Source: Candidatus Omnitrophota bacterium (GTDB taxonomy: Bacteria; Ratteibacteria; UBA8468; B48-G9; DTJG01). Taken from it: a stretch of 64,000 nt of DNA. The stretch lies in the NCBI GenBank assembly GCA_023819255.1, contig JAMWBU010000005.1, positions 1,657 to 65,656 on the forward strand, in the 5' to 3' direction. Both the position numbers and the translations under genes were made by a program. Below the pieces are notes generated by a model. That model was given only the letters and a program-made list of their open reading frames with translations, made no database searches and was not told the DNA's origin. This document shows, piece after piece, positions 3,330-27,590 of the stretch (positions within the stretch are counted from its first letter, which is position 1; each line of letters begins with the position of its first letter).

Positions 3330-3457
3330 ATAACTCTCCTTTTAACATACTGCGAAAAGGAACATCTTCGAAAATCAGCTATTTTAATGCTAAAAAACCA
3401 TTCGCCAGAAATCTCTCAGGATATCTTTGTATCTGTGAATTTTTATTACTGTATCTT

Positions 3458-10682: not shown

Positions 10683-10806
10683 GATGTTTGTTTTTTCCCA
10701 TCTTTCTCAAAGAGTGGTTGTGCGCGCACCTGCTAGATTTCTTTGACTTAAACAGCAAAATATGCTTTATTAACAACAGATTAAATTTAAACAATGGAGG
10801 TTTAAT

Positions 10807-11769
10807 ATGCAAAAAGTATTCAATTTTTCTCCGTCAGAATTTTTGCCATTTAAGGATGTGAAGGTAATTGAAAGAGTGCGAAAAATCAAAAAAAAGGACA
10901 TCTGCAAGCACCCCAACAAAAATTTTAAAATTCGCGTCATAGAAGATCAGACAGCGTTTGTTTTTGCCTGGGCTCTTCACATTGTTGGCGGAATAAAGAA
11001 ATCCCTTGAAGAAGGGAAACATCATGTAATAATTCTGCCTGCGCCAAATCCACAGTACGCGCTTGTTGCTGAAATGATCAATCAATTAAATATTTCGTGC
11101 AAACATGTACACACTTTTAATATGGATGAGTACGCCGATGAAAATGGAAATACAGCTCCAAAAGATTGGAAAGGCGGTTTCCAGTACTGGATGTGGCACG
11201 ATTTCTTTAATCGAATAAGGCCTGAACTGAGGATGCCTGAAAAACAAATACATTTTCCGAGCACAAAGAATGTCCAGTATTACAGCAAGATGATTGAAGA
11301 TCTCGGCGGAGCAGATATCTGTTATGGAGGCATTGGCTGGTGCGGACACATTGCATTTTTTGAGCCGCATCTCGGAATTGATTATGTCAATAACTTAGAA
11401 GGTTATCTCAAACTCGGCTCAAGGATTGTTGAACTTCATCCAATAACATTGTGTCAGAACAGTCTGTTTGCTGATGCAGGTTGTTCAGGAGACATTGCTG
11501 CGTGCCCGCCAAAAGCCGCAACAATAGGCCCCAGAGACTTGAAGAATTCAAAGCTTGTAAGTTTCTGGAATGGCTTTTCATACGGAGATGTTTCCTGGCA
11601 GAGATTTATCTCACGGCTTGCTGCGCATGGGCCGGTAAGTCCGCTTGTTCCAGCCAGTATCCTTCAAATCCTAAATAGCGAACTTACACTTTCAGGCAGT
11701 GTCGCAGAGGATTGTAAGACAGAAACAGGAGAAAGAAGAATACCCATCCAGTTTCCGGAGAAAAACTAA
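10807..11769 (+). CDS. Glucosamine-6-phosphate deaminase / 6-phosphogluconolactonase (NagB) family protein
   Basis: 320 aa. The FNMDEY motif and surrounding Rossmann-like pattern are typical of NagB/Pgl sugar-phosphate isomerase-deaminases. RBS GGAGG upstream. Confidence 0.6.
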   Translation: MQKVFNFSPSEFLPFKDVKVIERVRKIKKKDICKHPNKNFKIRVIEDQTAFVFAWALHIVGGIKKSLEEGKHHVIILPAPNPQYALVAEMINQLNISCKHVHTFNMDEYADENGNTAPKDWKGGFQYWMWHDFFNRIRPELRMPEKQIHFPSTKNVQYYSKMIEDLGGADICYGGIGWCGHIAFFEPHLGIDYVNNLEGYLKLGSRIVELHPITLCQNSLFADAGCSGDIAACPPKAATIGPRDLKNSKLVSFWNGFSYGDVSWQRFISRLAAHGPVSPLVPASILQILNSELTLSGSVAEDCKTETGERRIPIQFPEKN

Positions 11770-12776
11770 TGAAAAAACATTTGAAAGGAAAAATAATAGA
11801 CGCACACTCTCATGCTGGAGTATCTCTAAAAGCGTATATGAATATGGAATATCCATATGCTGAAACCATTGAAGGCATTGCTTTCAGACAGGAAAGATAC
11901 GGAATTGACGCCAATTTCGTTTTTCCTTTTTCTCCTGACCTTTTTTTTGACATCAATTTCCTTAAAAAAGGTATATGCAAACCATCAGGAAAACCGGTGT
12001 CAGATGTTCCCTATGCAATCGAGAATGAACTCTTATTAAAAGAAATCTATGAGTTCTGCCCTGAATACAATGGAAGATTTATTCCATTTGTCTCTGTGGA
12101 CCCTGTGAGAGAAATTAAAAAGCAGGTTGTGAATATTTTAAAACTTGAAAAAAAATATAGGATATTCGGGATCAAGATTGTCCCTGTGATATGTCAATCA
12201 AGTATTCTTGGCCTGCTCAAAACTGGGAAGGCCTTTATTGAAATAGCAAAAGAAAGAAACTGGCCTTTCACAATACACACAACAGTACATTCAGCAGAAA
12301 ATTTTTCCCACGCATCAGCAGTTTTTAAGGTTATTGAAAAAAATCCGGATGTGAGGTTCTGCCTGGCTCACTGCATTGGATTTGATAAAAATTATCTGAA
12401 AATGGCTGATAGCATGGAAAATGTATGGGTCGATACATCAGCCCTTACAATTCAGGTACAACTTACGAGAGAAAACCATCCCATCGCAGCCCCGGAGAAT
12501 GAAAGGTTTGATGCCGACTATTCAGATCACAAAAAGGTGTTAAGCTCTCTTGTCGATGCCTTCCCTGAAACCATTGTCTGGGGCACTGATACCCCTGCAT
12601 ATTCTTACATAGCAAGAAGAAAACAGGGAAAAACGAAAGATTCATATGTTGAAACATGGCTTAAAGCCACATACAGAGATGAAATTGACGCCTTGAGAAG
12701 TCTTCCGAGAAATCTTATTTTGAAGATTGCGAACGAAAACACGCTCAATTTTTTATTTGGCCTGGCAGATGATTAA
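11769..12776 (+). CDS. Amidohydrolase-2 (TIM-barrel metal-dependent hydrolase) family protein
   Basis: 335 aa. N-terminal IIDAHSHAG metal-binding HxH motif, later HC..F and D residues. Family includes sugar lactonases and decarboxylases. Start overlaps the stop of the upstream gene. Confidence 0.6.
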   Translation: MKKHLKGKIIDAHSHAGVSLKAYMNMEYPYAETIEGIAFRQERYGIDANFVFPFSPDLFFDINFLKKGICKPSGKPVSDVPYAIENELLLKEIYEFCPEYNGRFIPFVSVDPVREIKKQVVNILKLEKKYRIFGIKIVPVICQSSILGLLKTGKAFIEIAKERNWPFTIHTTVHSAENFSHASAVFKVIEKNPDVRFCLAHCIGFDKNYLKMADSMENVWVDTSALTIQVQLTRENHPIAAPENERFDADYSDHKKVLSSLVDAFPETIVWGTDTPAYSYIARRKQGKTKDSYVETWLKATYRDEIDALRSLPRNLILKIANENTLNFLFGLADD

Positions 12777-14034
12777 ACTGAAATACGGAAAAAGTGGTAT
12801 AGAGCTTAATTATCCAGCGAATTTTGTTGTTTTTGAAGGAAATGATATTTCAGGGATTGAAAATCCTGAAGAAAAAATCAGATGGTCATTGAAAAATCCT
12901 GTCGGATGTCCACCACTTTCCAAAATTGTAAGAAAGAAAAGAATTGAAAAAATATGTATTGTTATTTCTGATCACACAAGGGCTGTGCCGAATAAGATCA
13001 TACTTCCTGTAATTATTGAAACTTTGAAATTTGCTGGAATACCTGATGAAAAGATATTCATACTGATAGGAAACGGCACCCATAGAAGCACGACTGAAGA
13101 AGAAAAGATTGAACTTGCTGGCAAAGAAATTGTTGAAAGGTTTCCAATTTATGACCATTGCTCAACAGACGATTCAATGATAGTAAGGATTGAAAACACT
13201 GATTTTTATGTGAACAAAAGATATCTTGATGCAGACCTGAAAATAGTAACAGGTATGATTGAGCCACATTTTTTTGCTGGATTTTCTGGTGGAAGAAAAG
13301 GTGTTTGTCCTGGGATTGCCGGATATCAATCAATAAAAATATTCCATGGAGCCAGGTTTCTCGAACATCCGAATACAAAGCCAGGAATTCTCGAAAACAA
13401 TCCCTGTCATATATTTGCGACTGAATTTGCAAGAAAAACTGGCATTGATTTCCTTGTAAATGTGACAATAAATAAAAAAGGTGAAATTACAGGAATTTTT
13501 TCTGGAGATTTTGAAAAAGCATTTATGAAAGGAGTCGAGTTTTGCAAAAGTTCCACCACAGTTTTCTCTGAGAAAAAATACAAAATTGTCATTACAACAA
13601 ACGGTGGATACCCGCTTGACAGAGATTTTTATCAGTCTGTAAAAGGAATGGTGACCGCCCTTGAAATAGTGGAAGAAGGTGGCATTATCATCAGCGCAGC
13701 AGAATGTTGCGACGGGGTTGGAAGCGCAAATTTCAAAAAACTTCTGTACGGAATGCAGAAAACCGAAGATTTTATGAAAATGATAATGCAGCCAGGTTAT
13801 TTTCATGACCTCCAGTGGGGAGTGCAACCACTGGTTCATGTAATTGACAGGGCACGCGTATTTCTGGTCTCAACCCTTTCAGAAAAAGATGCAAGTTTGT
13901 GCAAAGTAATTCCTTTTAAAGACATAGATCAGGCAATCAGGGCTGCACTTGATGAATATGGAAAAGAAACTGAAATCGCTGTGATACCGGACGGTCCATA
14001 TACAATTGTTCAATTAAAAAAGGAAAACTTATGA
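12727..14034 (+). CDS. LarA-like (lactate racemase N-terminal domain, DUF2088) nickel-pincer-cofactor-dependent 2-hydroxyacid racemase/epimerase homolog
   Basis: 435 aa. Conserved DHTR and GNGTHR motifs of the LarA family N-domain and overall LarA-like length. An upstream in-frame ATG overlaps the previous gene; the true start may be a downstream Met. Confidence 0.6.
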   Translation: MRTKTRSIFYLAWQMIKLKYGKSGIELNYPANFVVFEGNDISGIENPEEKIRWSLKNPVGCPPLSKIVRKKRIEKICIVISDHTRAVPNKIILPVIIETLKFAGIPDEKIFILIGNGTHRSTTEEEKIELAGKEIVERFPIYDHCSTDDSMIVRIENTDFYVNKRYLDADLKIVTGMIEPHFFAGFSGGRKGVCPGIAGYQSIKIFHGARFLEHPNTKPGILENNPCHIFATEFARKTGIDFLVNVTINKKGEITGIFSGDFEKAFMKGVEFCKSSTTVFSEKKYKIVITTNGGYPLDRDFYQSVKGMVTALEIVEEGGIIISAAECCDGVGSANFKKLLYGMQKTEDFMKMIMQPGYFHDLQWGVQPLVHVIDRARVFLVSTLSEKDASLCKVIPFKDIDQAIRAALDEYGKETEIAVIPDGPYTIVQLKKENL

Positions 14035-15098
14035 ATGATTGGGGATTTTCACCTGATTTTGAAAATTTAAGAAATACTCTTCTGTGGGAAAAAAATTATC
14101 GTGTGCCAAATATGGAGTTTGTTATTGACAGGGAGATAAAAGAAGCCTATTTAAAAAAAGAAGTAAATTCAGTCAAAGAAGAGATTGAATTCAGGCATAG
14201 AGCCGGCTATGACTACATCTGGATAAGTAAGGGAATGGTGGATCCTGCTGGAACTGTTAATAAAGAACTTGTGATGGACGATCCAGCCAAACACTTCAAA
14301 GGAAAAGACATAAGGGTCTGGGCAGAAGAACATACCGGAATTATAAGAACAGAAAAGGATATTGAACAATTTCCATGGCCGGATATTAAGAAAACTGATT
14401 TTTCTGACTTTGAATTTGCAGAGAAGAATTTACCTGATGGAATGAAGGTTTTCGGGGTTTGCGGAAAAATATTTGTTGCAACATGGATGTTACTCGGCTT
14501 TGAAAACTTTGTGATGCTTAGCGTGGAAAAACCAGAATTTGTTGACCATCTGATAAATATAATTGGTGAAACCCAGGTAAGGTTCTGTGAAAAAATGCTT
14601 GAGTTTGAATGCGTTGGCGGAATATGGATTCCAGATGATATTGCCTATAGAACAGGGACCATAATGCCGCCAAAATGGCTTGGAGAAAAGATATTTCCGT
14701 ATTATAAAAGGATGTCAAAAATGATAAAGGATGCAGGAAAATTGTTCCTGTATCACTCTGATGGAAACCTCTACGAAATGCTTGACATCATAATTGACGC
14801 GGGATTTAACGCGCTGCATCCGATTGAACCTGAATCTATGGATATTCAGGAATTAAGAAAAAAAGTTGGTAAAAAGATCGCACTTATCGGAAACATCCGG
14901 GTTCACACCCTTGCAACAGGCACAAAACAGGAAATACAGGCGCTTACAATGGACAGAATCAAAAAATATGGAATGGAAGGCGGTTATGCTGTTGGCTCAA
15001 GTAATTCAGTTCCTAATTATGTACCGCTTGAAAATTATCTTACGATGCTTGAAACAAACGCGAAACATGGGTGGATAAAAGATAAGGAGGTACCGTGA
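14031..15098 (+). CDS. URO-D-like family protein (third paralog)
   Basis: 355 aa. HSDGN...DAGFNALHPIEPESMD pattern of the uroporphyrinogen decarboxylase/MtaA fold. Translationally coupled to the LarA-like gene. Confidence 0.55.
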   Translation: MNDWGFSPDFENLRNTLLWEKNYRVPNMEFVIDREIKEAYLKKEVNSVKEEIEFRHRAGYDYIWISKGMVDPAGTVNKELVMDDPAKHFKGKDIRVWAEEHTGIIRTEKDIEQFPWPDIKKTDFSDFEFAEKNLPDGMKVFGVCGKIFVATWMLLGFENFVMLSVEKPEFVDHLINIIGETQVRFCEKMLEFECVGGIWIPDDIAYRTGTIMPPKWLGEKIFPYYKRMSKMIKDAGKLFLYHSDGNLYEMLDIIIDAGFNALHPIEPESMDIQELRKKVGKKIALIGNIRVHTLATGTKQEIQALTMDRIKKYGMEGGYAVGSSNSVPNYVPLENYLTMLETNAKHGWIKDKEVP

Positions 15099-16156
15099 TC
15101 AGGATTGAAAACCCTTCAAAAAAAGAATATGAAAACATAATGCAATTCCTTGAAGAATCTTTTGACCATTCAAGAGGATTTTTTTATCGGTCGTTTCCGC
15201 AGGTTATGTCAAAAGAAACCCTTGATTACGACAACATTTTTATCATCAGGCAGAACAAAAGGATCGCCTCTTTAATCGGCATATACCCGCAAAATGTTGT
15301 GTTAAACGGAAGGGAAACAACAATTGGTGGTATAGGAAGCGTATCAACCCATCCTGATTTTAGAAACAAAGGATATATGAAGATATTGATGGACTTTTGC
15401 ATAGAAGAGATGAAAAGAAGAAATTATTCATTTTCAATTCTCGGAGGCGATAGACAGCGTTATAACTTCTGGGGATATGAAACATGCGGCGCAAATGCTG
15501 TATTTACCTTCAGTCAGAGAGCCTTTGAAAAAACAGGAATAACCAGCACTGTTTTAGTTTCCAGGTATGACGGCTCGATTGAAACACTTCAAGATATAAA
15601 AGAAGCTCATGAAAAATTTCCATGCTATATTGAAAGAACAATACCGTGGTATAAAAAAGTTTTTGATGAAAGAATACATACCCAGCTTTATTATACAAGA
15701 ATCAGAAACAGTTTTGCATATGCGGTCGCAGTTGGAGAAAGGACGGAAAGAACTATTGTAGAAATTGGCGGAGACAGCAACCTCTGGTGTTCTTTGATAA
15801 ACCAGCTACTTAAAAGATGGAATGCAAACGAAATTAGTGTTAATTTCCCGGCAAACATACCTGAAACAAATGTTTTATTGAAACATGCCAGCAGGTTCAC
15901 TATAGGACCCTTTTTTATGATAAAAATTCTCTCCCTCAAGGACACGATGGATTTTCTTTTCGGAAAGGATTTTGAAAATGAATATCTTGCGAAAATCACT
16001 GAAACAAAAGAAATTGCAGGAAAAGGCAAAAAGCTGGTAGAGCTTGACGAGAAAAAGTGGGTAAGGATTCTTTTCGGTCCCTTTTCTTTAGATACACCTG
16101 ATTTTTTGAAGAAAAAACAATCTCAGTTTTACTGGTGGTTTTTAGATCACATCTAA
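15095..16156 (+). CDS. GNAT family N-acetyltransferase (Eis-like, extended C-terminal domain)
   Basis: 353 aa. Acetyl-CoA binding-like segment (IGGIGSVSTHPDFRNKGYMKILM) in the N-terminal half. Last gene of the 10.8-16.2 kb operon. Confidence 0.5.
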   Translation: MIRIENPSKKEYENIMQFLEESFDHSRGFFYRSFPQVMSKETLDYDNIFIIRQNKRIASLIGIYPQNVVLNGRETTIGGIGSVSTHPDFRNKGYMKILMDFCIEEMKRRNYSFSILGGDRQRYNFWGYETCGANAVFTFSQRAFEKTGITSTVLVSRYDGSIETLQDIKEAHEKFPCYIERTIPWYKKVFDERIHTQLYYTRIRNSFAYAVAVGERTERTIVEIGGDSNLWCSLINQLLKRWNANEISVNFPANIPETNVLLKHASRFTIGPFFMIKILSLKDTMDFLFGKDFENEYLAKITETKEIAGKGKKLVELDEKKWVRILFGPFSLDTPDFLKKKQSQFYWWFLDHI

Positions 16157-17379
16157 TGTTCTGAAACAGGATATCCTATTGAAGCAAGCATTCGCGTTAT
16201 TTCTTCTCTGTTTGAAAGCTCACTGCAAATCTTCACCCTTTTTTTCTTTACATCCACATCAACAATCTTCACTCCCTCAACAGAAGAGATTCTGTCTTGT
16301 ATTTTCTTTGCGCAATTAGCGCAGGAAATCTCAGGAACATTAAAAACATAACAGTGTCCATACTTCTGCCTCACAGAAAATTTTTTTCTGGCCTCAGTTA
16401 TCATAAAATAAACCGCAAATCCGATAAGGATTAATGCTGATATGTATGAAACCAGAAGGAAATTGTTGTGTCTGTGTTGTGTTTCAAAAATACTGATACC
16501 ATAATTACTCACAATCGCATCCAGTCCAATAGCCGATAATAATGAAATGCCAACAATTACGATGATATAGATTATAAAACTCTTTATTCCGAGTGTTCTA
16601 GCGATAAAAAACATGGTAACTGTATTTGTCGCAGGCCCTGTTATTAAAAACACAAGTGCGGCGCCAGGACTTATTCCTTTTGCAATCAAGGATGCTGCAA
16701 TTGGTATCGAGCCTGTCGCACATACATAAAGAGGGACCCCAACAACAAGCATTAACAGGTATGTTAGGTATCTGCTGTCCAGATGGCCCGATAAAAACCG
16801 GTCAGGAACAATGTATGATATTATTCCTCCTATAAGCACTCCCCAGAATATCCATTTTGCTATTGAGCCGTATATTTCTGTGAAAGCATATTTCAATCCG
16901 CCAGCAATTGTTGTTTTCGAACAGGAAAAATTACCCTGTTCAGGTTGTTTTTCAGCGTTTTTCTTTTCTTTTGAAAAAATGTCAACAAGGATCCCGGCCA
17001 CAATGCCAATCAAAACACTTGCAATTATTCTGCAAAACATAAAAAATCCCCCAAGAAGTCCATATGTTGCAAATATTGAATCAATGCCTGTGACAGGGGT
17101 TGAACTTAAGAAAGCGACAACAGAACCCTTGCTTGCTCCTGACTTATAAAAAGTTGCCGCAGGAGGAAGAACACCGCAAGAACAAAGTGGAAGAGGAACT
17201 CCAAATATTACGGCTTTCACAATAGGCAGTATGCCCTTTCCTCCAAGATGCTTCAGGATAATTTCTGGCTTGAAAAAAGCGGAAATAATGCCAGACACAA
17301 CAAAACCGAGCAAAAGATAAAAACTCATCTGTAAAAACAGATTCCATGTTTCCTTAACAATTCCGAAGATCAAGTCCAC
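16153..17379 (-). CDS. SO_0444-family permease with C-terminal heavy-metal-associated (HMA) domain (putative Cu/Zn efflux)
   Basis: 408 aa, multi-TM. C-terminal CANCAKKIQDRISSVEGV...VDVKKKRVKICS is an HMA CxxC metal-binding domain. Confidence 0.65.
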   Translation of the reverse strand: MDLIFGIVKETWNLFLQMSFYLLLGFVVSGIISAFFKPEIILKHLGGKGILPIVKAVIFGVPLPLCSCGVLPPAATFYKSGASKGSVVAFLSSTPVTGIDSIFATYGLLGGFFMFCRIIASVLIGIVAGILVDIFSKEKKNAEKQPEQGNFSCSKTTIAGGLKYAFTEIYGSIAKWIFWGVLIGGIISYIVPDRFLSGHLDSRYLTYLLMLVVGVPLYVCATGSIPIAASLIAKGISPGAALVFLITGPATNTVTMFFIARTLGIKSFIIYIIVIVGISLLSAIGLDAIVSNYGISIFETQHRHNNFLLVSYISALILIGFAVYFMITEARKKFSVRQKYGHCYVFNVPEISCANCAKKIQDRISSVEGVKIVDVDVKKKRVKICSELSNREEITRMLASIGYPVSEH

Positions 17380-17383
17380 TGGT

Positions 17384-18193
17384 TTATGATGAAGTTATTG
17401 AAATGTTCATACTGCCTGTTCTGTATCCTTCGAGATCTAAACTGATACAGGCGTAGCCTATTTCTTTCAGGACCTTTATTATTTTTTTCCTTATATTAAC
17501 AATTTTTGCGATATCATCCGGAGAAACTTCTATTCTGCACATTTTATCATAATCTCTCACTCTCACTTCTAAAAAACCGATTCTTCTTAAATATTCTTCA
17601 GCCCTGCAAATTCTTTCCAACCTCTCTTTTGTGATTTTTTCACCGTATGGAATCCTTGAAGCAAGGCAAGCCATCTGCGGCTTATTCCATGTTGGAAGTC
17701 CCATCTTTTTTGACAGTTCCCTTATATCTTTTTTCCTGAATTCAGCAATCTGCAGTGGCGAAATAACTCCAAACATTGATTTTGCCTTATTTCCAGGCCG
17801 ATAATCAGAGATATCGTCAAAATTTGAACCATCAGCAATAGCATTAAAACCCTCTTTTTTCGCAACAGACGCAAGGCGCGAAAATAAATCCTTTTTGCAA
17901 TAAAAACATCTATCGACAGGGTTTTTTGTAAAGGTTTTATCAGCCAGCTTTTTAGAATTATAGATAAAAACCTTTACACCGAGCGCCCGCGCAAAATCCT
18001 CTGCAAATTTGACCTCATTTTCAGAATAGAGCTCTGCTTTTTCAATAAAAGCACCAACATTTTCTGCTCCAAGACAATCTACAGAGAATCTCATAAGGAA
18101 TGTGCTATCAACTCCTCCAGAATAAGCGATAAGAATTTTCCTGCTTTTTTTCAGGATTTTTTCAAGTTTCTTTTTTTTTTCACCGATATTCAT
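17384..18193 (-). CDS. LarE-like PP-loop ATP-dependent sulfur transferase (TIGR00268 family)
   Basis: 269 aa. PP-loop SGGVDS motif (ILIAYSGGVDSTFL). Cys-rich segment DRCFYCKK plus a downstream Cys (MACLASR) resembling the [4Fe-4S]-binding LarE subclass. Confidence 0.6.
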   Translation of the reverse strand: MNIGEKKKKLEKILKKSRKILIAYSGGVDSTFLMRFSVDCLGAENVGAFIEKAELYSENEVKFAEDFARALGVKVFIYNSKKLADKTFTKNPVDRCFYCKKDLFSRLASVAKKEGFNAIADGSNFDDISDYRPGNKAKSMFGVISPLQIAEFRKKDIRELSKKMGLPTWNKPQMACLASRIPYGEKITKERLERICRAEEYLRRIGFLEVRVRDYDKMCRIEVSPDDIAKIVNIRKKIIKVLKEIGYACISLDLEGYRTGSMNISITSS

Positions 18194-18432
18194 TCTTCAA
18201 CATTCACAACTTCTTTAATCTCAGGAACCCTGTCCTTTATAATTTTTTCAACCCTCATTTTCAATGTTAACTGAGCAAAAGGACAGCCTGCGCAACTTCC
18301 TGTTAGTTTCACCTTTGCGGTATCGCCTGAAACCTCAATAAGCTCACAGTCTCCGCCTTCCATCTGAAGAAAACACCTTATTTCCTTCAATGCCTCTTCC
18401 ACCTTTGTTTTCACTTCCTGATTTGAAGTCAT
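18190..18432 (-). CDS. NifU-like (Nfu) Fe-S cluster carrier domain protein
   Basis: 80 aa. GSCAGCP motif of the NifU C-terminal/Nfu domain. Confidence 0.7.
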   Translation of the reverse strand: MTSNQEVKTKVEEALKEIRCFLQMEGGDCELIEVSGDTAKVKLTGSCAGCPFAQLTLKMRVEKIIKDRVPEIKEVVNVEE

Positions 18433-18447
18433 CAGTCCTCCTTCTGG

Positions 18448-18825
18448 TTAATGTTTTGCCCTTTGTTTCTCTCTATAGTCATTGATTGCGGCGCGAAGTC
18501 CCTGTTCTGCAAGAAGAGAACAGTGTTTCTTCAATGGCGGGAGACCCTCAAGAACATCTACGACATCCTGATTGGTAATCTTTTCCGCTTCTTCAAGGGT
18601 TTTTCCTCTGGCAAGTTCCGTGATCACAGAACTTGTTGCAACAGCAGCTCCGCAGCCAAATGTCTCAAACTTGATGTCTGCAATCCTGTCATCTCTAACC
18701 TTTATATAAATCCACATAACATCTCCACATACAGGATTTCCCACTTTTCCTATTCCATCCGCGTTCTCTATTCTTCCCATATTTCTCGGGTTTTTAAAGT
18801 GATCAAGAAGTTTTTCGCTGTACAT
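18448..18825 (-). CDS. iscU: Fe-S cluster assembly scaffold IscU/NifU N-terminal type
   Basis: 125 aa. YSEKLLDHFKNPRNMG...GNPVCGD...FETFGCGAA conserved Cys/Asp pattern of the U-type scaffold. Confidence 0.8.
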   Translation of the reverse strand: MYSEKLLDHFKNPRNMGRIENADGIGKVGNPVCGDVMWIYIKVRDDRIADIKFETFGCGAAVATSSVITELARGKTLEEAEKITNQDVVDVLEGLPPLKKHCSLLAEQGLRAAINDYREKQRAKH

Positions 18826-18834
18826 TTTTTCTCC

Positions 18835-19734
18835 TTATACATATTTAAGCATTGCGTCGAGAGCGCTGCGCGCCTTTTTAATAACATTTTCTGAAAGAAC
18901 AATTTCATCTGTTTCATTTTCCAGACAGTCTTTTAATTTTTCAAGTGTTGTTTTTTTCATGTTAAAGCAAACTCTGGCTGATCCAAGAGAAAAAAATTCT
19001 TTATACGGATTTTCCTTCTTCAACCTGTGTATCAGCCCTTCTTCTGTGCCTATAATAAATATTTTTGAATCTGAAATTTTTGCCCTTTTCAGCATGCCTG
19101 ATGTTGAAAGCACAAAATCCGCCGCCTCCTGAACTTCAGGATTGCATTCCGGGTGAACCATTATTTCCGCATCAGTATATTTTTTTCTTGCCAGTTTTAA
19201 ATCCTGTATTGTAAATTGTCTGTGAACAAAACAGTACCCATCCCACAGAATCAATTTTTTTTCAGGAACCTGTTTCTGAACAAAATAACCAAGATTCCTG
19301 TCAGGTAGAAAAATTACTGTGTCTGAAGGAATATTTTTAACAACCGTAGCCGCATTCGATGAAGTGCAGCAAACATCAGAAATCGCTTTTACATCAGCTG
19401 AAGTATTCACATATGAAACAACCGGAACATCAGGATTTTTTTCTTTTAATTTCATCACATCTTCAACCCTTGCCATATCCGCAAGAGGACAACCCGCATC
19501 AAAGGCGGGCAAAAAAACCTTTTTTCCTGGATTTAAAATTTTTGCTGTCTCTGCCATGAATCTTACACCACAAAAAATGATAAGACCAGAATCTGTTATT
19601 TCCGTTGCTTTTCTTGCAAGCTCAAGACTGTCCCCAACAAAATCCGCTACATCCTGTATTTCTGGCAATTGATAATTATGCGCCAGAATCACAGCATTTT
19701 TCTTCTCTTTGATTTTTCTTATTTCATCTATCAT
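18835..19734 (-). CDS. nadA: Quinolinate synthase NadA
   Basis: 299 aa. N-terminal KNAVILAHNYQLPEIQDVADFVGDSLELA and internal repeats typical of NadA. Confidence 0.85.
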   Translation of the reverse strand: MIDEIRKIKEKKNAVILAHNYQLPEIQDVADFVGDSLELARKATEITDSGLIIFCGVRFMAETAKILNPGKKVFLPAFDAGCPLADMARVEDVMKLKEKNPDVPVVSYVNTSADVKAISDVCCTSSNAATVVKNIPSDTVIFLPDRNLGYFVQKQVPEKKLILWDGYCFVHRQFTIQDLKLARKKYTDAEIMVHPECNPEVQEAADFVLSTSGMLKRAKISDSKIFIIGTEEGLIHRLKKENPYKEFFSLGSARVCFNMKKTTLEKLKDCLENETDEIVLSENVIKKARSALDAMLKYV

Positions 19735-19735
19735 C

Positions 19736-20896
19736 TTATTTTTTGTTCCAGAAAGGAGACATCTTCCTTAACTTCTCAACAATTTCAGGTAATACATCTG
19801 CGGTTTTCTCAATATCAGCCATTGTATTGGACCTACCAAGGCTGAATCTTAAAGAGCCATGCGCAACCTCTGGCGGAATACCAAGCGCAAGAAGCACGTG
19901 AGACGGCTCCAGAGAACCAGAGGTACAGGCAGAGCCAGAAGATACGCATATTCCTTCAAAATCAAGATGCAAAAGCATGCTTTCGCCCTCAACATATTTA
20001 ACGCAAATGTTGAGCGTGTTATAAAGACGCTTTTCAGGGTGTCCATTAACAATGATTTCAGGTATTCTTTCAACAAGTTTCTTTTCAAGCTCATCCCTGA
20101 GAATTTTTTCTTTTGATGAATCCTGAGCCATTTTTTCCTCAGCGATCTCGCACGCTTTCCCAAGTCCGACCATAGCAGGGACATTCTCTGTTCCCGGCCT
20201 CAAACCCTTTTCCTGATGTCCGCCATAAAAAACGGGCTTAAATTTTACTCCTTTTCTCACATAAAGAGCCCCTATTCCTTTTGGTCCGTAAAACTTGTGT
20301 CCTGACAGTGAAAAAAAGTCCACATTTAATTTTTTTACAGACACAGGAATTTTTCCTGCCACCTGAACCCCATCGCAGTGGAAAACAATATTATTTTCTT
20401 TCGCGATTTTTCCAATTTGCTCAATGGGTTCGATTGTTCCAATTTCATTGTTCGCAGCCATTATCGAAATAAGCATTGTTTTCTCATTTATTGCTTTTCT
20501 CACATCGTCAGGATCAATAATTCCATACCTGTCTACTGGAAGATAGGTCACCTGAAAGCCCATATTTTTTTCAAGAAACTTGCAAACATTCAGCACAGCA
20601 TGGTGTTCAATCAGCGAAGTTATGATGTGGTTGCCTCTGTTTTTCAAAAGCAATGCAGTGCCGATAATTGCGATATTGTTGCTTTCTGTTCCACCTGATG
20701 TAAAAATTATTTCTTCAGATGAAGCATCAAGCAATCTTGCCACCTTTTTCCTCGCATCCTCAACTGCCTCTTTTGCTCTTTGAGAGGCGGTGTAGATAGA
20801 AGAGGGATTAAAAAACATTTCAGTAAACCATTTTTTCATTTCCTCAAGCACAACCGGATCGCAGGGAGTTGTCGCATTATGGTCAAGATATATCAT
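19736..20896 (-). CDS. Cysteine desulfurase (NifS/IscS class, PLP-dependent)
   Basis: 386 aa. MIYLDHNATTP start, PLP-lysine region SLSGHKFYGPKG, active-site loop SSGSACTSG. Confidence 0.85.
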   Translation of the reverse strand: MIYLDHNATTPCDPVVLEEMKKWFTEMFFNPSSIYTASQRAKEAVEDARKKVARLLDASSEEIIFTSGGTESNNIAIIGTALLLKNRGNHIITSLIEHHAVLNVCKFLEKNMGFQVTYLPVDRYGIIDPDDVRKAINEKTMLISIMAANNEIGTIEPIEQIGKIAKENNIVFHCDGVQVAGKIPVSVKKLNVDFFSLSGHKFYGPKGIGALYVRKGVKFKPVFYGGHQEKGLRPGTENVPAMVGLGKACEIAEEKMAQDSSKEKILRDELEKKLVERIPEIIVNGHPEKRLYNTLNICVKYVEGESMLLHLDFEGICVSSGSACTSGSLEPSHVLLALGIPPEVAHGSLRFSLGRSNTMADIEKTADVLPEIVEKLRKMSPFWNKK

Positions 20897-20908
20897 TTTG
20901 GTTCCTTT

Positions 20909-21319
20909 TTAAAATTTTATTTTTATCGCTCTTACCATACACCCTTTAACACATAACATACAGGTGATACACTTTTCATAGTCAAAAAGAACCTTTCTTG
21001 TTGAGCCGTCATAATAGAAAGCGTTTGTCGGACAGAGTCCAATACATACACCGCAATGTGTACAAATCTTATCGTCCTTGGTAATATCCTGCTTCAACCT
21101 CTGAAGTATGATATTCTGATTTTTCAGTTCTTTCAAAACATGTTTGACAACATTTTCTTCGCCCGTGAAAACAATAACCATTAGCCCCTCTTTCTGAGGA
21201 AGAACCTGCGCCTGCAGGATATTAAATTCTATGTCGTATTTTTTCACAAGATTTGAAATTGTCGGTTTATCAACAAGTTCTCTGGGAAATTTAAGCACCA
21301 CCCTTTCGCTTATCTTCAT
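20909..21319 (-). CDS. NIL-domain 4Fe-4S ferredoxin (MA1822-like partner of COG1900 protein)
   Basis: 136 aa. N-terminal NIL domain (FNILQAQVLP...) followed by two CxxCxxCxxxCP ferredoxin motifs (CTHCGVCIGLCP, CITCMLCVKGC). Confidence 0.7.
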   Translation of the reverse strand: MKISERVVLKFPRELVDKPTISNLVKKYDIEFNILQAQVLPQKEGLMVIVFTGEENVVKHVLKELKNQNIILQRLKQDITKDDKICTHCGVCIGLCPTNAFYYDGSTRKVLFDYEKCITCMLCVKGCMVRAIKIKF

Positions 21320-22521
21320 TGGATTTTCTCCTTTGTTTCAAAACCTTTCATCTTTACTCCTGATTCTTTACCAGGCAGTTTTGCCACAGGGTTGGTAAGT
21401 TCAAAACTTCTCGATGAAATCCAGTTTTTAAGTATCCCGGCAATTTTTCTTGCCATGACAAAGCTTGAGAGCGCGCCGGTTGGAATCGTTCTCTCGCCAA
21501 CCTTGATACTTCCAGAAAAAAGCTCTGCATAGCTTGCTTCTCCAAGAATATCAGGCTTTCTTTCTGGATAACTTTTGCTGTAATCAACAACAGGAGCAAA
21601 CATTTTTTCAGCGGGAATTCCGCACCAGAACGCAACCTTCTCATCCACAACAGGAATAGGTATGCCTATTCCGACAATAAGGGTAACTCCATAACCAACA
21701 AAAGAAGCGCCACGCAAAAATTCTCCATTCATTTGTTTCAAGTCGCCAATAACAGCAAGGGTCCCTGCGGGCCTTTTTGGCACCCCTTCTGAAGTCCTTT
21801 CAACTGATGGATTGTGCTGTGTGCCGTGCCATGCAACATAACCGATACCGCCGCCGAGAAAAATTTTTGTTCCAATCCCGATTGAATAATACTCAGGATC
21901 TCTCAAGAGAGGAGAAAGAACCCCCGCAGAACAGAAATTCGCATTACCAAAGTTTGGCTTCAATATCCCCATATATGTATACAACATCCTGTCTGAAGAA
22001 TTTACAGCAACATTATAATTCTGATAACAATTTCTAGGATTGAATAAGATAGCCTCATTAATGTTTTTCAGCGAAAAATAAGACCTCAATTCTTTTCTGG
22101 GATAACAATCAGTGCCATATGATGTTGCCTCAAGAAGTATACTTCTTCCACTGACGAGCTCTTCAATCACATAACCTCCGCCATAGCTGAATTCGCCTGG
22201 ATAGTAGAGATTTTTTGGATCGTCCGGCGGAATTGCGGTCGCGCCAAGATAGACATCAACCGCTGCAAGCCCTGCGTAGGCAGGCACTCCGTTAAGAAAA
22301 CATGTTCCGCCGCCAATCTTAATTCTTGGAGCGGGGTGTCCAAAATTTAAGTAAATGCTGCTTGAACACATTGGGCCAAATGTTCCTGTTGTCACAACAT
22401 CCACCTCTTTCGCTGCTTTTACTTCGCCTTTTTTTTTCACAACCTCAAGCATCTCTTCAGCGGTGACTATAACTGCCTGTCCCTTTCTTATTTTTTCATT
22501 AATTTCTTCTATTGTTTTCAT
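21316..22521 (-). CDS. COG1900/DUF39 family protein (MA1821-like, sulfide-dependent homocysteine biosynthesis)
   Basis: 401 aa. Characteristic N-terminus (KGQAVIVTAEEM...VDVVTTGTFGPMCSS...) of the DUF39 family. Translationally coupled to the NIL-ferredoxin gene. Confidence 0.65.
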   Translation of the reverse strand: MKTIEEINEKIRKGQAVIVTAEEMLEVVKKKGEVKAAKEVDVVTTGTFGPMCSSSIYLNFGHPAPRIKIGGGTCFLNGVPAYAGLAAVDVYLGATAIPPDDPKNLYYPGEFSYGGGYVIEELVSGRSILLEATSYGTDCYPRKELRSYFSLKNINEAILFNPRNCYQNYNVAVNSSDRMLYTYMGILKPNFGNANFCSAGVLSPLLRDPEYYSIGIGTKIFLGGGIGYVAWHGTQHNPSVERTSEGVPKRPAGTLAVIGDLKQMNGEFLRGASFVGYGVTLIVGIGIPIPVVDEKVAFWCGIPAEKMFAPVVDYSKSYPERKPDILGEASYAELFSGSIKVGERTIPTGALSSFVMARKIAGILKNWISSRSFELTNPVAKLPGKESGVKMKGFETKEKIQ

Positions 22522-22563
22522 AAACTTCCCCTTTTTAACTATGTCTGAAGAAACAAAAAATAC

Positions 22564-23987: not shown

Positions 23988-24025
23988 ATTTGTAAAATAG
24001 CGCCAAGTGATTTAAAATAAATTAA

Positions 24026-26739: not shown

Positions 26740-26816
26740 CAGCATCTGATTTCACCGCAAAAAAGCCTCCTTAAATCCAGGCCGGCTAAAATTTTTCTAT
26801 AATCAGTCCGGGGGAC

Positions 26817-26845: not shown

Positions 26846-26868
26846 TGTAACACCAAAAAGGAGGCACC

Positions 26869-27579: not shown

Positions 27580-27590
27580 CAGAGCATAAA

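What the first reader, a model, noticed from the sequence alone, without database searches (positions are those of the whole stretch)
10807..16156. Carbohydrate operon centred on a LarA homolog: NagB-like, amidohydrolase-2, LarA-like, URO-D-like, GNAT
- Five translationally coupled genes.
- LarA-family enzymes (DHTR/GNGTHR motifs present) use the Ni-pincer nucleotide cofactor. Beyond lactate racemase, they include 2-hydroxyacid and sugar-acid racemases/epimerases.
- Combined with a NagB/Pgl-fold isomerase-deaminase, a TIM-barrel lactonase/decarboxylase-type amidohydrolase, a URO-D-fold protein and an acetyltransferase, this looks like an uncharacterised pathway converting an amino-sugar or sugar acid via a 2-epimerisation step.
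- The cofactor-synthesis gene larE-like is 3 kb downstream on the other strand. No larB/larC in the window.
Basis: partly seen in the sequence, partly recalled or inferred. Interest (0 to 1): 0.6.

Follow-up and report, generated by a model that had tools for sequence, protein, structure and literature searches.

The report
Sugar operon with accessory nickel-pincer racemase
An uncultured Omnitrophota bacterium carries a conserved five-gene operon of unknown function, in which a widespread amino-sugar-type enzyme pair has picked up an optional nickel-cofactor racemase that most likely flips a small lactate-like acid rather than a sugar acid.

Summary
Five same-strand genes (10807-16156) have start/stop overlaps of 1, 8, 4 and 4 nt and a conserved promoter-like motif. 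The gene order recurs in 12 or more independent Omnitrophota-type contigs.

The LarA homolog (true start ATG 12769) keeps every catalytic and cofactor-binding residue of LarA. A [4Fe-4S]-type LarE lies 3.3 kb downstream. No LarB or LarC is in the window.

- **The operon is not centred on LarA.** The core is the NagB-like + Amidohydro_2 pair. The NagB-like family is very conserved (55-93% identity among the 80 loci retrieved; 506 matching stretches in GTDB species genomes). It occurs across PVC phyla, Atribacterota and Armatimonadota, usually without LarA.
- **The amidohydrolase looks like an N-deacylase.** In other lineages its place is taken by NagA-like or PIG-L deacetylases, never together with it. 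This favours an N-deacylase over a lactonase or decarboxylase.
- **LarA and URO-D-like are accessory.** They are deleted or decayed in three natural variants.
- **The LarA pocket is lactate-racemase-like.** It reads F,F,W,G, with F,L,W,E in a sister lineage, not the gluconate-epimerase type E,V,A,H. Its next relatives sit beside D-lactate-dehydrogenase-like FAD oxidases.

Best reading: an uncharacterised amino-sugar catabolic module plus a short-chain 2-hydroxyacid racemase. The substrate is unknown. Moderately interesting.

The parts
10743..10771 (+). Promoter-like motif TTGACT-N17-TTTATT, followed by a GGAGG ribosome-binding site, upstream of the first gene
   Evidence: The sequence was read. 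The same motif (TTGACTGAAAAAGCAAAATATGTTTTATTA and variants) lies upstream of the NagB-like gene in nearly all related loci. This includes loci with different upstream genes (L006/L017/L103, L016/L094) and the distant lineage L105. Function is inferred, not shown.
10807..11769 (+). NagB-like sugar(-phosphate) deaminase/isomerase homolog ('NagBL'), 320 aa
   Evidence: There is no Pfam hit. NCBIfam nagB scores 62 bits, far below its cutoff. PDB NagB structures match at E 4e-10, with FNMDEY and GGIGxxGHIAFxEP conserved, and the Arg and Lys that align with the NagB phosphate binders also conserved. The family is very conserved: 57-93% identity among the 120 listed hits and 55-99% among the 80 genome loci, with 74% mean column identity in a 12-sequence cross-phylum alignment.
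11769..12776 (+). Amidohydro_2 metal-dependent hydrolase ('Amh2'), 335 aa; inferred N-deacylase
   Evidence: PF04909 scores 66 bits. H13, H15, H170, H201 and D274 are invariant in the family alignment. It lies directly downstream of NagBL in most loci. It never co-occurs with the NagA-like or PIG-L genes that take its place in other lineages. It has no PDB sequence relative.
12769..14034 (+). LarA homolog (NPN-dependent 2-hydroxyacid racemase, lactate-racemase branch), 421 aa
   Evidence: Lar_N + LarA_C are present. Ni_dep_LarA scores 412 bits, below the 460 cutoff. The best PDB match is Isosphaera pallida LarA 9EIA/9EID at about 5e-95. D72, R75, H108, H174, K184, H200, Y294, Q295 and K298 are all conserved. 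The specificity positions read F,F,W,G.
14031..15098 (+). URO-D/MtaA-fold protein ('UroDL'), 355 aa, function unknown
   Evidence: PF01208 scores 73 bits. The AF2 model has pLDDT 90.5. Foldseek gives MtaA 4AY7 at TM 0.72 and URO-D structures at TM 0.64-0.72. The MtaA Zn-binding cysteines are replaced (YHSDG, GSSNS). H242, D244, E266 and N325 are invariant.
15095..16156 (+). Eis-like GNAT N-acetyltransferase (Acetyltransf_9), 353 aa
   Evidence: PF13527 scores 74 bits and PF00583 scores 36 bits. The best PDB match is 3N7Z, a GNAT-family protein, at E 1e-11 over residues 45-283. It is conserved at the operon's 3' end in all variants. In L106 it occurs alone after mfd.
17384..18193 (-). LarE, ATP-dependent sulfur insertase for NPN synthesis, [4Fe-4S]-type (not part of the operon, but the only cofactor gene in the window)
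   Evidence: TIGR00268 scores 315 bits against a cutoff of 150. It carries the SGGVDS P-loop and a CXXC-C motif (C96, C99, C176), as defined for T. maritima LarE in PMC9283937.

Best explanation
This is a self-promoted five-gene catabolic operon of an Omnitrophota bacterium, built from modules.

**Core module (inferred function).**
- The Amidohydro_2 enzyme removes an N-acyl group from an N-acylated amino sugar, probably carrying an anionic group at C6 such as phosphate.
- The NagB-like enzyme then opens the ring and converts the 2-amino-aldose into a ketose with loss of ammonia, as NagA/NagB do for GlcNAc-6-P.

**Accessory module.**
- The LarA homolog is a genuine nickel-pincer-nucleotide enzyme. 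It inverts C2 of a small 2-hydroxy acid (lactate-sized to about C4) by the proton-coupled hydride-transfer mechanism of lactate racemase.
- It acts on a by-product or co-substrate of the pathway, so that the organism's stereospecific downstream enzymes can use it. It does not act on the sugar backbone.
- The URO-D-fold protein, which has a His/Asp/Glu-type site instead of the MtaA zinc-thiolate site, is a dispensable helper of unknown chemistry.
- The Eis-like GNAT acetylates an amine of the substrate or of a side product.

**Shown here:** operon structure, conservation, modularity, residue conservation, fold of UroDL.

**Inferred:** the deacylase/deaminase roles, the size class of the LarA substrate, and any link between the LarA substrate and the sugar. 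The identity of the sugar is not known.
For: **Operon.** All four junctions overlap. A promoter-like motif is conserved across lineages. The gene order is conserved in 12 or more contigs and in a second lineage at 49-84% identity.

**Core.**
- The NagBL family matches 506 stretches in GTDB species genomes.
- Among 72 non-Omnitrophota loci, Amh2 lies within 6 kb in 38, NagA-like in 6 and PIG-L in 3. These three partners never occur together.
- In L046 a NagA-like gene sits exactly where Amh2 normally sits.
- The NagB catalytic Asp, His and Glu, and the Arg and Lys aligned to the phosphate binders, are conserved.
- Neighbours in other phyla are catabolic: FGGY kinase, DhnA-type aldolase, AraC/DeoR/ROK regulators, ABC/MFS transporters, GH29, FucI and esterases.

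**LarA.**
- All NPN-binding and catalytic residues are present.
- The pocket reads F,F,W,G, or F,L,W,E in sister lineage L105. The published LAR signature is F,F,W,E/Q (PMC11770544).
- Its next relatives are adjacent to FAD_binding_4 oxidases. In Kiritimatiellia/Verrucomicrobiota loci a LAR-type LarA + FAD oxidase pair sits next to NagBL-Amh2.

**Accessory status.** L099 lacks UroDL. L013 has one deletion spanning LarA-UroDL. L015 has a UroDL deletion and a LarA frameshift. NagBL, Amh2 and GNAT are intact in all three.

**Cofactor.** LarE is 3.3 kb downstream of LarA.
Against: - No enzyme of the cluster has been assayed, and no family member is characterised in the searched literature.
- Amh2 belongs to a Pfam family known for lactonases, decarboxylases and hydratases, not deacetylases. 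The displacement argument rests on few, phylogenetically clustered loci.
- NagBL fails the NagB equivalog threshold, lacks Asp141 and has a changed phosphate loop (LPAPNP instead of LPTGGTP), so it may not be a deaminase.
- An N-acetyltransferase beside an N-deacylase is not explained.
- The Omnitrophota operon has no kinase, aldolase or transporter, so the pathway is incomplete locally.
- The E/Q-to-Gly change in the LarA pocket could admit a larger substrate than assumed. LarAH10 shows that pocket signatures do not always predict gluconate epimerase activity (PMC11770544).
- LarB and LarC were not found.
Confidence: 0.45

Rival explanations
1. One reading: the LarA homolog is the central enzyme, a C2-epimerase of a sugar acid or amino-sugar acid (gluconate/mannonate, glucosaminate). 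The amidohydrolase acts as a lactonase feeding it.
For: - LarA homologs include D-gluconate/D-mannonate 2-epimerases, and LarAH10 does this with a non-GntE pocket (PMC11770544).
- Amidohydro_2 includes sugar lactonases (established knowledge).
- The Gly at the T359 position enlarges the pocket.
- FGGY kinases near NagBL in other phyla give second-best hits to gluconokinase.
Against: - The pocket is F,F,W,G, not E,V,A,H.
- The sister-lineage operon keeps the plain LAR signature F,L,W,E.
- NCBIfam hexonate-epimerase models score only 27-54 bits against 412 bits for lactate racemase.
- LarA is lost in natural variants while the rest persists.
- The NagBL-Amh2 pair occurs mostly without any LarA.
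- Amh2 is interchangeable with N-deacetylases, not with lactonases.
Confidence: 0.15
2. The genes are neighbours by inheritance and compaction only. LarA is an ordinary lactate racemase for general lactate metabolism, and the GNAT and URO-D-like genes are unrelated passengers. The five do not form one pathway.
For: - GNAT alone follows glycerate kinase-mfd in L106.
- UroDL and LarA come and go independently of the core.
- UroDL relatives sit in unrelated sugar loci.
- LAR-type LarA genes are usually stand-alone with an FAD oxidase.
- All the lineages are related, so synteny may be inherited.
Against: - All four junctions overlap, and there is a single conserved promoter-like motif.
- The block stays intact when both flanks change.
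- It persists at 49-66% identity for LarA, UroDL and GNAT in L105.
- A separate association of LAR-type LarA with NagBL-Amh2 exists in Kiritimatiellia/Verrucomicrobiota loci.
Confidence: 0.22
3. Salvage or catabolism of a lactyl-bearing or 6-deoxy amino sugar. Candidates are N-acetylmuramic acid from prey peptidoglycan, which releases D-lactate, or N-acetyl-fucosamine/quinovosamine, which yield lactaldehyde and then lactate. This would explain directly why a lactate racemase is attached. It is a specific sub-case of the best explanation.
For: - The LarA pocket is LAR-type, and D-LDH-like FAD oxidases are partners.
- FGGY ketose-kinase-like genes and class I aldolase genes accompany NagBL in PVC operons.
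- FucI, an FGGY kinase, GH29 and NagBL share one Aerophobetes operon.
- GH29 genes lie near the cluster in several loci.
- MurQ-type elimination chemistry is mechanistically close to the NagB enolamine step (established knowledge; inference).
Against: - No etherase, kinase or aldolase is in the Omnitrophota operon.
- The residues aligned to the NagB phosphate-binding Arg and Lys are conserved, which argues against a neutral 6-deoxy substrate.
- No biochemical precedent exists.
- The GH29 association is weak: 1 of 72 loci within 6 kb.
Confidence: 0.2
4. A biosynthetic operon that makes an N-acetylated amino sugar or sugar derivative for the cell envelope. NagBL would run in the aminating direction, GNAT would acetylate the product, and LarA would supply a D-2-hydroxy acid.
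For: - A GNAT in the operon fits synthesis better than breakdown.
- L. plantarum LarA supplies D-lactate for the cell wall (established knowledge).
- The very high conservation of NagBL resembles a housekeeping enzyme.
Against: - In other phyla NagBL-Amh2 sits with transporters, sugar kinases, aldolases, glycoside hydrolases and AraC/DeoR/ROK/LacI-type regulators. These are typical of catabolism.
- No glycosyltransferase or nucleotidyltransferase is in the cluster.
- A hydrolase partner (Amh2, NagA-like or PIG-L) is consistently present.
Confidence: 0.08

Closest known systems
LarA of Isosphaera pallida (LarAH2, short-chain aliphatic 2-hydroxyacid racemase; PDB 9EIA/9EID/9EIF) and LarA of Lactiplantibacillus plantarum (PDB 5HUQ)
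   Same: - Full-length alignment at about 5e-95 (I. pallida) and 4e-70 (L. plantarum).
- Same two domains.
- Identical NPN-tethering Lys, Ni-binding His, Arg75, both catalytic His, and the Tyr/Gln/Lys carboxylate clamp.
- Expected to use the same proton-coupled hydride-transfer mechanism.
   Different: - It scores below the NCBIfam lactate-racemase equivalog cutoff (412 against 460).
- The position equivalent to T359 (E/Q in most LARs) is Gly in this clade.
- It is embedded in a sugar-type operon rather than a lar operon, and it is not beside a D-LDH-like oxidase.
GntE (LarAH19/20, D-gluconate/D-mannonate 2-epimerases)
   Same: Same superfamily and cofactor.
   Different: The specificity residues E,V,A,H of GntE are not present (F,F,W,G here). 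NCBIfam hexonate-epimerase models score 27-54 bits.
nagA-nagB (GlcNAc-6-P deacetylase + GlcN-6-P deaminase)
   Same: - An adjacent hydrolase + NagB-fold pair.
- NagBL keeps the FNMDEY Asp, the GH..EP His and Glu, and the Arg and Lys aligned with the NagB phosphate binders.
- In some lineages the hydrolase partner is a true NagA-like or PIG-L deacetylase.
   Different: - NagBL is 320 aa with a roughly 50-aa N-terminal extension and inserts.
- It has no Pfam hit and scores far below the nagB cutoff.
- Asp141 is replaced by Cys/Ser/Ala, and the LPTGGTP loop by LPAPNP.
- The hydrolase is Amidohydro_2, not Amidohydro_1.
MtaA (methylcobamide:CoM methyltransferase, PDB 4AY7) and uroporphyrinogen decarboxylase
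   Same: UroDL has the same (beta/alpha)8 URO-D fold (TM 0.72). It retains the His that aligns with the first MtaA zinc ligand.
   Different: - The two Cys zinc ligands are Asp and Ser/Asn.
- No corrinoid protein gene is nearby.
- Sequence identity is 14-17%.
- Relatives sit in sugar transport/kinase loci.
Eis-family GNATs (Acetyltransf_9; e.g. PDB 3N7Z, M. tuberculosis Eis)
   Same: An N-terminal GNAT domain with the R-x-x-G-x-x acetyl-CoA motif, followed by a second region that aligns with the 3N7Z protein (residues 45-283).
   Different: It is shorter (353 aa against about 390-410). The substrate is unknown, and there is no link to aminoglycosides.

Membership tests
LarA superfamily (NPN-dependent 2-hydroxyacid racemases/epimerases) | Lar_N (PF09861) + LarA_C (PF21113) architecture | tested here: met
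   206 and 110 bits, both far above the Pfam cutoffs.
LarA superfamily (NPN-dependent 2-hydroxyacid racemases/epimerases) | Cofactor residues: Lys184 (thioamide tether), His200 (Ni ligand), Arg75/Asp72 | tested here: met
   Alignment to 5HUQ/6C1W. All are conserved in the clade and in 110 relatives.
LarA superfamily (NPN-dependent 2-hydroxyacid racemases/epimerases) | Two catalytic histidines (His108, His174) and the carboxylate clamp Tyr294/Gln295/Lys298 | tested here: met
   GTHR, EPHFF and FYQSVK motifs.
LarA superfamily (NPN-dependent 2-hydroxyacid racemases/epimerases) | NPN biosynthesis genes larB, larC and larE in the same genome | tested here: inconclusive
   LarE is present at 17384-18193. 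No LarB or LarC is in the 64-kb window. The rest of the genome could not be searched.
Lactate racemase sensu stricto (NCBIfam NF033504 equivalog; LAR group) | Score at or above the curated equivalog cutoff | tested here: not met
   411.8 bits against a cutoff of 460. It is still the best-scoring model.
Lactate racemase sensu stricto (NCBIfam NF033504 equivalog; LAR group) | Specificity signature F,F,W,E/Q at LarA1 positions 175, 176, 358, 359 (PMC11770544) | tested here: inconclusive
   F,F,W,G in the window clade, so three of four match. F,L,W,E in the sister operon lineage L105.
GntE-type gluconate 2-epimerases | Specificity signature E,V,A,H at the same positions | tested here: not met
   F,F,W,G. 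NF052594 scores 27 bits and NF052592 scores 54 bits.
NagB (glucosamine-6-phosphate deaminase) | Sequence-model membership (Pfam Glucosamine_iso; TIGR00502 cutoff) | tested here: not met
   No Pfam hit. TIGR00502 scores 62.3 bits against 236.9.
NagB (glucosamine-6-phosphate deaminase) | Catalytic Asp72, His143 and Glu148, and phosphate binders Arg172 and Lys208 (E. coli numbering, from established knowledge) | tested here: met
   FNMDEY, GHIAFFEP, and the aligned R206 and K236 are conserved. However, Asp141 is Cys/Ser/Ala and the TGGT phosphate loop is APNP.
Amidohydro_2 (PF04909) | Pfam membership and the HxH...H...H...D metal/catalytic set | tested here: met
   66 bits against a cutoff of 26. 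H13, H15, H170, H201 and D274 are invariant. The sub-family function (lactonase, decarboxylase or amidase) is not determined.
URO-D / MtaA superfamily | URO-D fold | tested here: met
   PF01208 scores 73 bits. The AF2 model has pLDDT 90.5. Foldseek gives TM 0.72 to 4AY7 and 1J93.
URO-D / MtaA superfamily | MtaA-type zinc site (His-x-Cys ... Cys) | tested here: not met
   H-S-D and G-S-S-N-S occupy the aligned positions.
LarE ([4Fe-4S]-dependent type) | TIGR00268 membership, SGGxDS P-loop and CXXC-C motif (PMC9283937) | tested here: met
   315 bits against a cutoff of 150. SGGVDS, C96-x-x-C99 and C176 are present.

The most novel reading that the evidence does not exclude
The NagB-like + Amidohydro_2 pair may be the signature of an undescribed catabolic route, widespread in anoxic-habitat glycan degraders, for an N-acylated amino sugar other than GlcNAc.

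- **Distribution:** PVC phyla, Omnitrophota, Atribacterota, Armatimonadota and Aerophobetes.
- **Partners in PVC phyla:** an FGGY kinase, a second Amidohydro_2 paralog and a DhnA-type class I aldolase.
- **Candidate substrates:** a 6-deoxy-, 6-sulfo/6-sulfated or lactyl-bearing hexosamine.
- **Role of the racemase:** in Omnitrophota and some Kiritimatiellia/Verrucomicrobiota the route has recruited an NPN-dependent racemase to handle the chiral C3 hydroxy-acid it releases. This would be the first physiological coupling of a LarA enzyme to amino-sugar breakdown.
Probability: 0.25. Interest if true: 0.7.

Novelty: new variant of a known kind. Interest (0 to 1): 0.5.

Why it matters
LarA-family enzymes are among the few known users of the nickel-pincer cofactor. 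For most homologs the physiological role is unknown (PMC7583248, PMC11770544). This operon gives a LAR-branch LarA a defined and conserved genetic context, with natural 'knock-out' variants and a diagnostic pocket change (E/Q to G). That makes its role directly testable.

The work also exposes an uncharacterised enzyme pair that is very conserved and phylogenetically broad: NagB-like + Amidohydro_2. It matches 506 stretches in GTDB species genomes and lies in the sugar-utilisation loci of PVC bacteria and candidate phyla, which dominate polysaccharide turnover in sediments and digesters. Assigning its substrate would improve annotation of thousands of genomes.

If the cluster turns out to be a plain lactate racemase next to unrelated genes, the finding is ordinary.

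Tried and rejected
1. **TTG 12727 as the LarA start.** Rejected. Only the ATG 12769 product is on record.
2. **LarB/LarC in the window.** All 57 ORFs were scanned and none was found.
3. **AF2 model of NagBL from a 12-sequence alignment.** It failed (pLDDT 42.5), so no fold search was done.
4. **Structure of Amh2.** PDB sequence and profile searches gave nothing.
5. **Riboswitch or other RNA upstream of the operon.** None was found in Rfam.
6. **Literature on this gene combination.** Nothing was found for Omnitrophota LarA or for URO-D-like proteins in sugar loci. The 2026 NPMN-enzyme discovery paper does not mention URO-D or Amidohydro_2.
7. **Errors in my first ORF clustering.**
   - It merged FGGY kinases with a second Amidohydro_2 paralog through a fusion protein in L035. 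I first misread this as 'two FGGY genes', and a Pfam scan corrected it.
   - It produced antisense shadow ORFs in high-GC loci (cluster c2).
   - Cluster c6 mixed GFO/IDH/MocA proteins and aminotransferases.
   - Counts were redone with HMMs on six-frame ORFs.
8. **Window ORF 24026-25318 as a NagA candidate.** Rejected. It is dihydroorotase.
9. **Upstream glycerate kinase-mfd as part of the operon.** Rejected as unproven. The operon has its own conserved promoter-like motif, and in L006/L103 other genes separate them.
10. **The palindrome GTGCGCGCAC (10720-10729).** It is not conserved in relatives.

Full report
**1. What is in the sequence**

The window is about 39% G+C. Between 10807 and 16156 it carries five + strand ORFs of 320, 335, 435 (421), 355 and 353 aa.

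The junctions are TAATG (1-nt overlap), ATGATTAA (8 nt, using ATG 12769), ATGA (4 nt) and GTGA (4 nt). Shine-Dalgarno-like GGAGG/AAGGAGG sequences precede the first and last genes.

The mechanical TTG 12727 start of the LarA ORF is wrong. Only the 421-aa product starting at ATG 12769 is on record in public assemblies.

The source is an uncultured 'Candidatus Omnitrophica' bacterium. An ENA contig of 79 kb and an NCBI MAG carry the identical LarA homolog.

**2. Family assignments**

| Gene | Result |
|---|---|
| 1 (NagBL) | No Pfam hit. NCBIfam nagB 62 bits (cutoff 237). PDB NagB structures at E 4e-10, with FNMDEY and GGIGxxGHIAFxEP conserved, plus the Arg and Lys that align with the NagB phosphate binders. 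|
| 2 (Amh2) | Amidohydro_2, 66 bits. No relative among solved structures by sequence or profile. |
| 3 (LarA homolog) | Lar_N + LarA_C. Best NCBIfam model is nickel-dependent lactate racemase, 412 bits, under its 460 cutoff. |
| 4 (UroDL) | URO-D, 73 bits, with weak MtaA-like hits. |
| 5 (GNAT) | Acetyltransf_9 (Eis-like) GNAT. |

- Downstream on the minus strand lie an ArsP_1+HMA permease (SO_0444 Cu/Zn efflux family), LarE, NifU, IscU, NadA, a class V aminotransferase (cysteine desulfurase type), NIL-ferredoxin, HcyBio and Rrf2.
- Upstream lie glycerate kinase and Mfd.
- None of the 57 ORFs of the window is LarB- or LarC-like.

**3. The LarA homolog is a competent NPN enzyme of the lactate-racemase branch**

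Alignment to L. plantarum LarA (5HUQ/6C1W) and Isosphaera pallida LarA (9EIA/9EID, about 5e-95) shows that Asp72, Arg75, His108, His174, Lys184, His200, Tyr294, Gln295 and Lys298 are all conserved.

Urdiain-Arraiza et al. (PMC11770544) use four positions to predict specificity: LarA1 F175, F176, W358 and T359.
- Lactate racemases (LARs) have F,F,W,E/Q.
- Gluconate epimerases (GntEs) have E,V,A,H.

The results here are:
- The window protein and its eight closest full-length cluster representatives (65-75% identity) have F,F,W,G.
- The next relatives (about 50% identity) have F,M,W,E or F,M,W,Q.
- The two such relatives whose loci were read with an adjacent oxidase sit directly upstream of an FAD_binding_4/FAD-oxidase_C gene. 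This is the D-lactate-dehydrogenase/GlcD type. It is also the context class (COG0277) that Desguin et al. found recurrently for LarA homologs (PMC7583248).
- A second, more distant lineage of the same five-gene operon (L091/L105) has F,L,W,E.

The racemase of this operon was therefore recruited from ordinary short-chain 2-hydroxyacid racemases. In the window's lineage it then acquired a pocket-enlarging E/Q-to-Gly change. Nothing in the sequence resembles a hexonate epimerase (27-54 bits to those models).

**4. The operon is conserved but modular**

The five genes occur in the same order in L001-L007, L012, L016, L017, L025, L094, L097/98, L100, L103/104 and L105.

In L006/L103/L104 the downstream flank is ribonucleotide reductase and enolase, not the permease and LarE. 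Upstream, unrelated genes intervene before mfd. The block therefore moves as a unit.

A motif TTGACT-N17-TTTATT, often with TG upstream of the second hexamer, lies 35-60 nt before the NagB-like start in nearly all loci. This includes loci with different upstream genes and L105. In the window it is at 10743-10771. I read it as the operon's own promoter, which is an inference.

Conservation differs strongly between genes. Against L105 the identities are NagBL 84%, UroDL 66%, Amh2 60%, LarA 53% and GNAT 49%.

Four natural variants are informative:
- **L099** lacks UroDL cleanly. About 150 nt of non-coding DNA lie between an intact LarA gene and GNAT.
- **L013** has one in-frame deletion running from LarA residue ~115 to UroDL residue ~317.
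- **L015** has an internal UroDL deletion and a frameshifted LarA gene. NagBL, Amh2 and GNAT are intact in all three of these variants.
- **L106** has glycerate kinase-mfd-GNAT with none of the other four genes.

So LarA and UroDL are accessory, and the tie between GNAT and the rest is the weakest.

**5. The real core is NagB-like + Amidohydro_2, and it is widespread**

- **Family size.** The NagB-like protein retrieves 3558 proteins at E <= 1e-5. The 120 listed hits are 57-93% identical and come from Verrucomicrobiota, Kiritimatiellia, Planctomycetota, Spirochaetales and Marinimicrobia, including the cultured Adhaeretor mobilis.
- **Conservation.** A 12-sequence cross-phylum alignment has 74% mean column identity.
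- **Genome scan.** In the GTDB species genomes 506 matching stretches encode it, and 80 loci were retrieved.

With HMMs run on six-frame ORFs, the 72 retrieved non-Omnitrophota loci have the following within 6 kb of NagBL:

| Neighbour | Loci (of 72) |
|---|---|
| Amh2 ortholog | 38 |
| FGGY kinase | 16 |
| DhnA-type class I aldolase | 15 |
| Second Amidohydro_2 paralog (Amh2B) | 13 |
| NagA-like Amidohydro_1 | 6 |
| FAD oxidase | 4 |
| PIG-L deacetylase | 3 |
| LAR-type LarA | 3 |

- **Recurrent operon.** In Phycisphaerae/Planctomycetia the operon is (AraC) | aldolase - FGGY - Amh2B - NagBL - Amh2. FGGY and Amh2B are fused in L035.
- **Other contexts.**
   - GH29 - radical SAM - URO-D-like - GH116 - FucI - FGGY - NagBL - esterase in an Aerophobetes MAG.
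   - MFS - NagBL - GFO/IDH/MocA - PIG-L in Armatimonadota.
   - ROK regulator, AP_endonuc_2 and ABC transporter genes in Caldatribacterium.
- **Alternative partners.** Amh2, NagA-like and PIG-L never co-occur (38 + 6 + 3 loci, no overlap). In L046 the NagA-like gene occupies exactly the slot downstream of NagBL.

This is the pattern of non-orthologous displacement. It is my main reason to read Amh2 as an N-deacylase and NagBL as the following deaminase/isomerase, analogous to NagA/NagB. The caveats are that the displaced loci are few and phylogenetically clustered, and that Amidohydro_2 has no characterised deacetylase that I know of.

NagBL keeps the NagB catalytic Asp, His and Glu and the aligned Arg and Lys. 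It replaces Asp141 (Cys/Ser/Ala) and the LPTGGTP phosphate loop (LPAPNP). The E. coli numbering is from established knowledge. This suggests a related but different anionic amino-sugar substrate.

**6. URO-D-like and GNAT**

- **Fold.** UroDL models confidently (pLDDT 90.5). It superposes on MtaA and URO-D at TM 0.64-0.72.
- **Metal site.** The MtaA zinc cysteines are Asp and Ser/Asn. H242, D244, E266 and N325 are invariant in 41 relatives. It is therefore neither a thiol methyltransferase nor obviously a uroporphyrinogen decarboxylase.
- **Relatives.** Relatives at 50-59% identity occur in Planctomycetes and Spirochaetes. One sits at the end of a sugar ABC transporter operon next to an FGGY kinase, AP_endonuc_2 and Dak1/Dak2.
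- **Chemistry.** Unknown.
- **GNAT.** It is Eis-like, with an intact acetyl-CoA motif. Why an acetyltransferase sits with a putative deacylase is unexplained.

**7. How it most likely works**

- **Shown:** one transcription-unit-like block, a conserved core pair, an accessory racemase with a complete NPN active site and a LAR-type pocket, and a nearby [4Fe-4S]-type LarE.
- **Inferred, steps 1-2:** Amh2 deacylates an N-acyl amino sugar (phosphate or similar). NagBL then converts it to a ketose plus ammonia.
- **Inferred, step 3:** a chiral C3-C4 2-hydroxy acid linked to the pathway is racemised by LarA, so that a stereospecific enzyme elsewhere can use it. That acid could come from lactaldehyde or lactate of a 6-deoxy sugar, from D-lactate of a lactyl ether such as MurNAc, or from a hydroxyacyl N-substituent.
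- **Support for that link:** LAR-type LarA + FAD oxidase pairs lie next to NagBL-Amh2 in Kiritimatiellia/Verrucomicrobiota loci L051, L052 and L061.

I put 0.45 on this general model. I put about 0.2 on the specific lactyl/6-deoxy amino-sugar version.

'Mere synteny with an ordinary lactate racemase' gets 0.22.

**8. Comparison with known systems and novelty**

The LarA homolog is a new member of the LAR branch with a variant pocket. The operon context is not among those described for LarA homologs (PMC7583248, PMC11770544), and I found no paper on it.

The NagB-like/Amidohydro_2 pair appears uncharacterised despite its breadth. I rate the whole as a new variant of a known kind: a carbohydrate catabolic operon with an NPN racemase. 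Interest is 0.5. It is not surprising in mechanism, but it offers a testable physiological role for a LarA enzyme and a handle on a large unannotated enzyme pair.

**9. Limits**

- There is no biochemical evidence.
- Genome-wide larB/larC status is untested.
- The NagBL and Amh2 structures were not obtained.
- Co-occurrence counts are not corrected for phylogeny.
- Some MAG variants could be assembly artefacts. The L013 and L015 remnants do, however, retain recognisable flanking residues of both genes.

Noticed in passing
window 16153-22986 (minus strand): LarE is the penultimate gene of a tightly packed minus-strand gene string: Rrf2 - HcyBio - NIL/4Fe-4S ferredoxin - cysteine desulfurase (Aminotran_5) - NadA - IscU - NifU - LarE - ArsP_1/HMA permease. 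LarE has the CXXC-C motif of the [4Fe-4S]-dependent type. That type needs a cysteine desulfurase as sulfur donor (PMC9283937). NadA makes the nicotinate precursor of the NPN cofactor. In T. maritima these genes are dispersed. Here the sulfur donor, Fe-S scaffold, pyridine precursor enzyme and LarE are physically linked.
   Followed up: partly
window 16153-17379 (minus strand): A permease of the ArsP_1 family has a C-terminal heavy-metal-associated domain and is convergent with the operon, with stop codons overlapping. It passes the NCBIfam SO_0444 Cu/Zn efflux cutoff (330 against 300 bits). Whether it moves nickel is unknown. It is absent from the L006/L103-type loci.
   Followed up: no
window 10743-10771 and the equivalent positions in L003-L105: A conserved 30-nt motif (TTGACTGAAAAAGCAAAATATGTTTTATTA and variants) lies upstream of the NagB-like gene across lineages. 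The conservation of the spacer (AAAATaTG) goes beyond what a promoter needs and could mark a regulator binding site.
   Followed up: partly
window 54765-57884 (+ strand): Three adjacent genes encode a ferredoxin-like membrane protein (Fer4_5), a 2-hydroxyglutaryl-CoA dehydratase D-component homolog (HGD-D, 233 bits) and a BcrAD/BadFG-type activator ATPase. 2-Hydroxyacyl-CoA dehydratases act on (R)-2-hydroxyacyl-CoA. A 2-hydroxyacid racemase in the same genome could feed such an enzyme, as lactate racemase does in the acrylate pathway. The genes are 40 kb from the operon, and no link was tested.
   Followed up: no
window 33845-36975: A DNA N6/N4 methylase (minus strand) and a large serine recombinase (Resolvase + Recombinase + Zn ribbon, 35254-36975, + strand) lie here. 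A tRNA gene sits on the opposite strand at 36700-36786, inside the 3' end of the recombinase ORF. This looks like an integrated mobile element at a tRNA.
   Followed up: no
window 1057-6442 (minus strand): There is a second, divergent URO-D-like paralog (1057-2187; 27.5% identical to UroDL over 200 aa). Beside it are two proteins with no family match (381 aa and 994 aa). The 994-aa protein is conserved upstream of the operon in the Omnitrophota loci, and a distant relative lies near NagBL in a Verrucomicrobiota locus (L055). URO-D-like genes also turned up near LarA homologs in L008, L009 and L010, so this fold seems expanded in these genomes.
   Followed up: partly
L013:7073-7450, L015:2236-3680, L099:7850-8000: These are natural decay variants of the operon. 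L013 has an in-frame LarA-UroDL deletion chimera. L015 has a frameshifted LarA gene plus a UroDL remnant. L099 has a clean UroDL absence. They are useful as natural knock-outs if the MAG assemblies are correct.
   Followed up: yes
L035:7726-9987; L029:7634-9977; L039:12124-14694: In Phycisphaerae/Planctomycetia an FGGY kinase is followed by a second Amidohydro_2 paralog distinct from Amh2, and in L035 it is fused to it. The fusion suggests consecutive steps (phosphorylation then hydrolysis) in the unknown pathway.
   Followed up: partly
window 23148-31646 and 37074-38432, 50933-53104, 59693-60985: The window carries several glycan-degradation-type genes: a sulfatase with an SGSH_C domain, a weak GH20 hexosaminidase-like protein, a GHL6/GH42M protein, a GH29 alpha-L-fucosidase, AP_endonuc_2 and GFO/IDH/MocA proteins, and a DUF1559/N-methyl pilin-like protein typical of PVC-type bacteria. 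This is consistent with a saccharolytic lifestyle.
   Followed up: no
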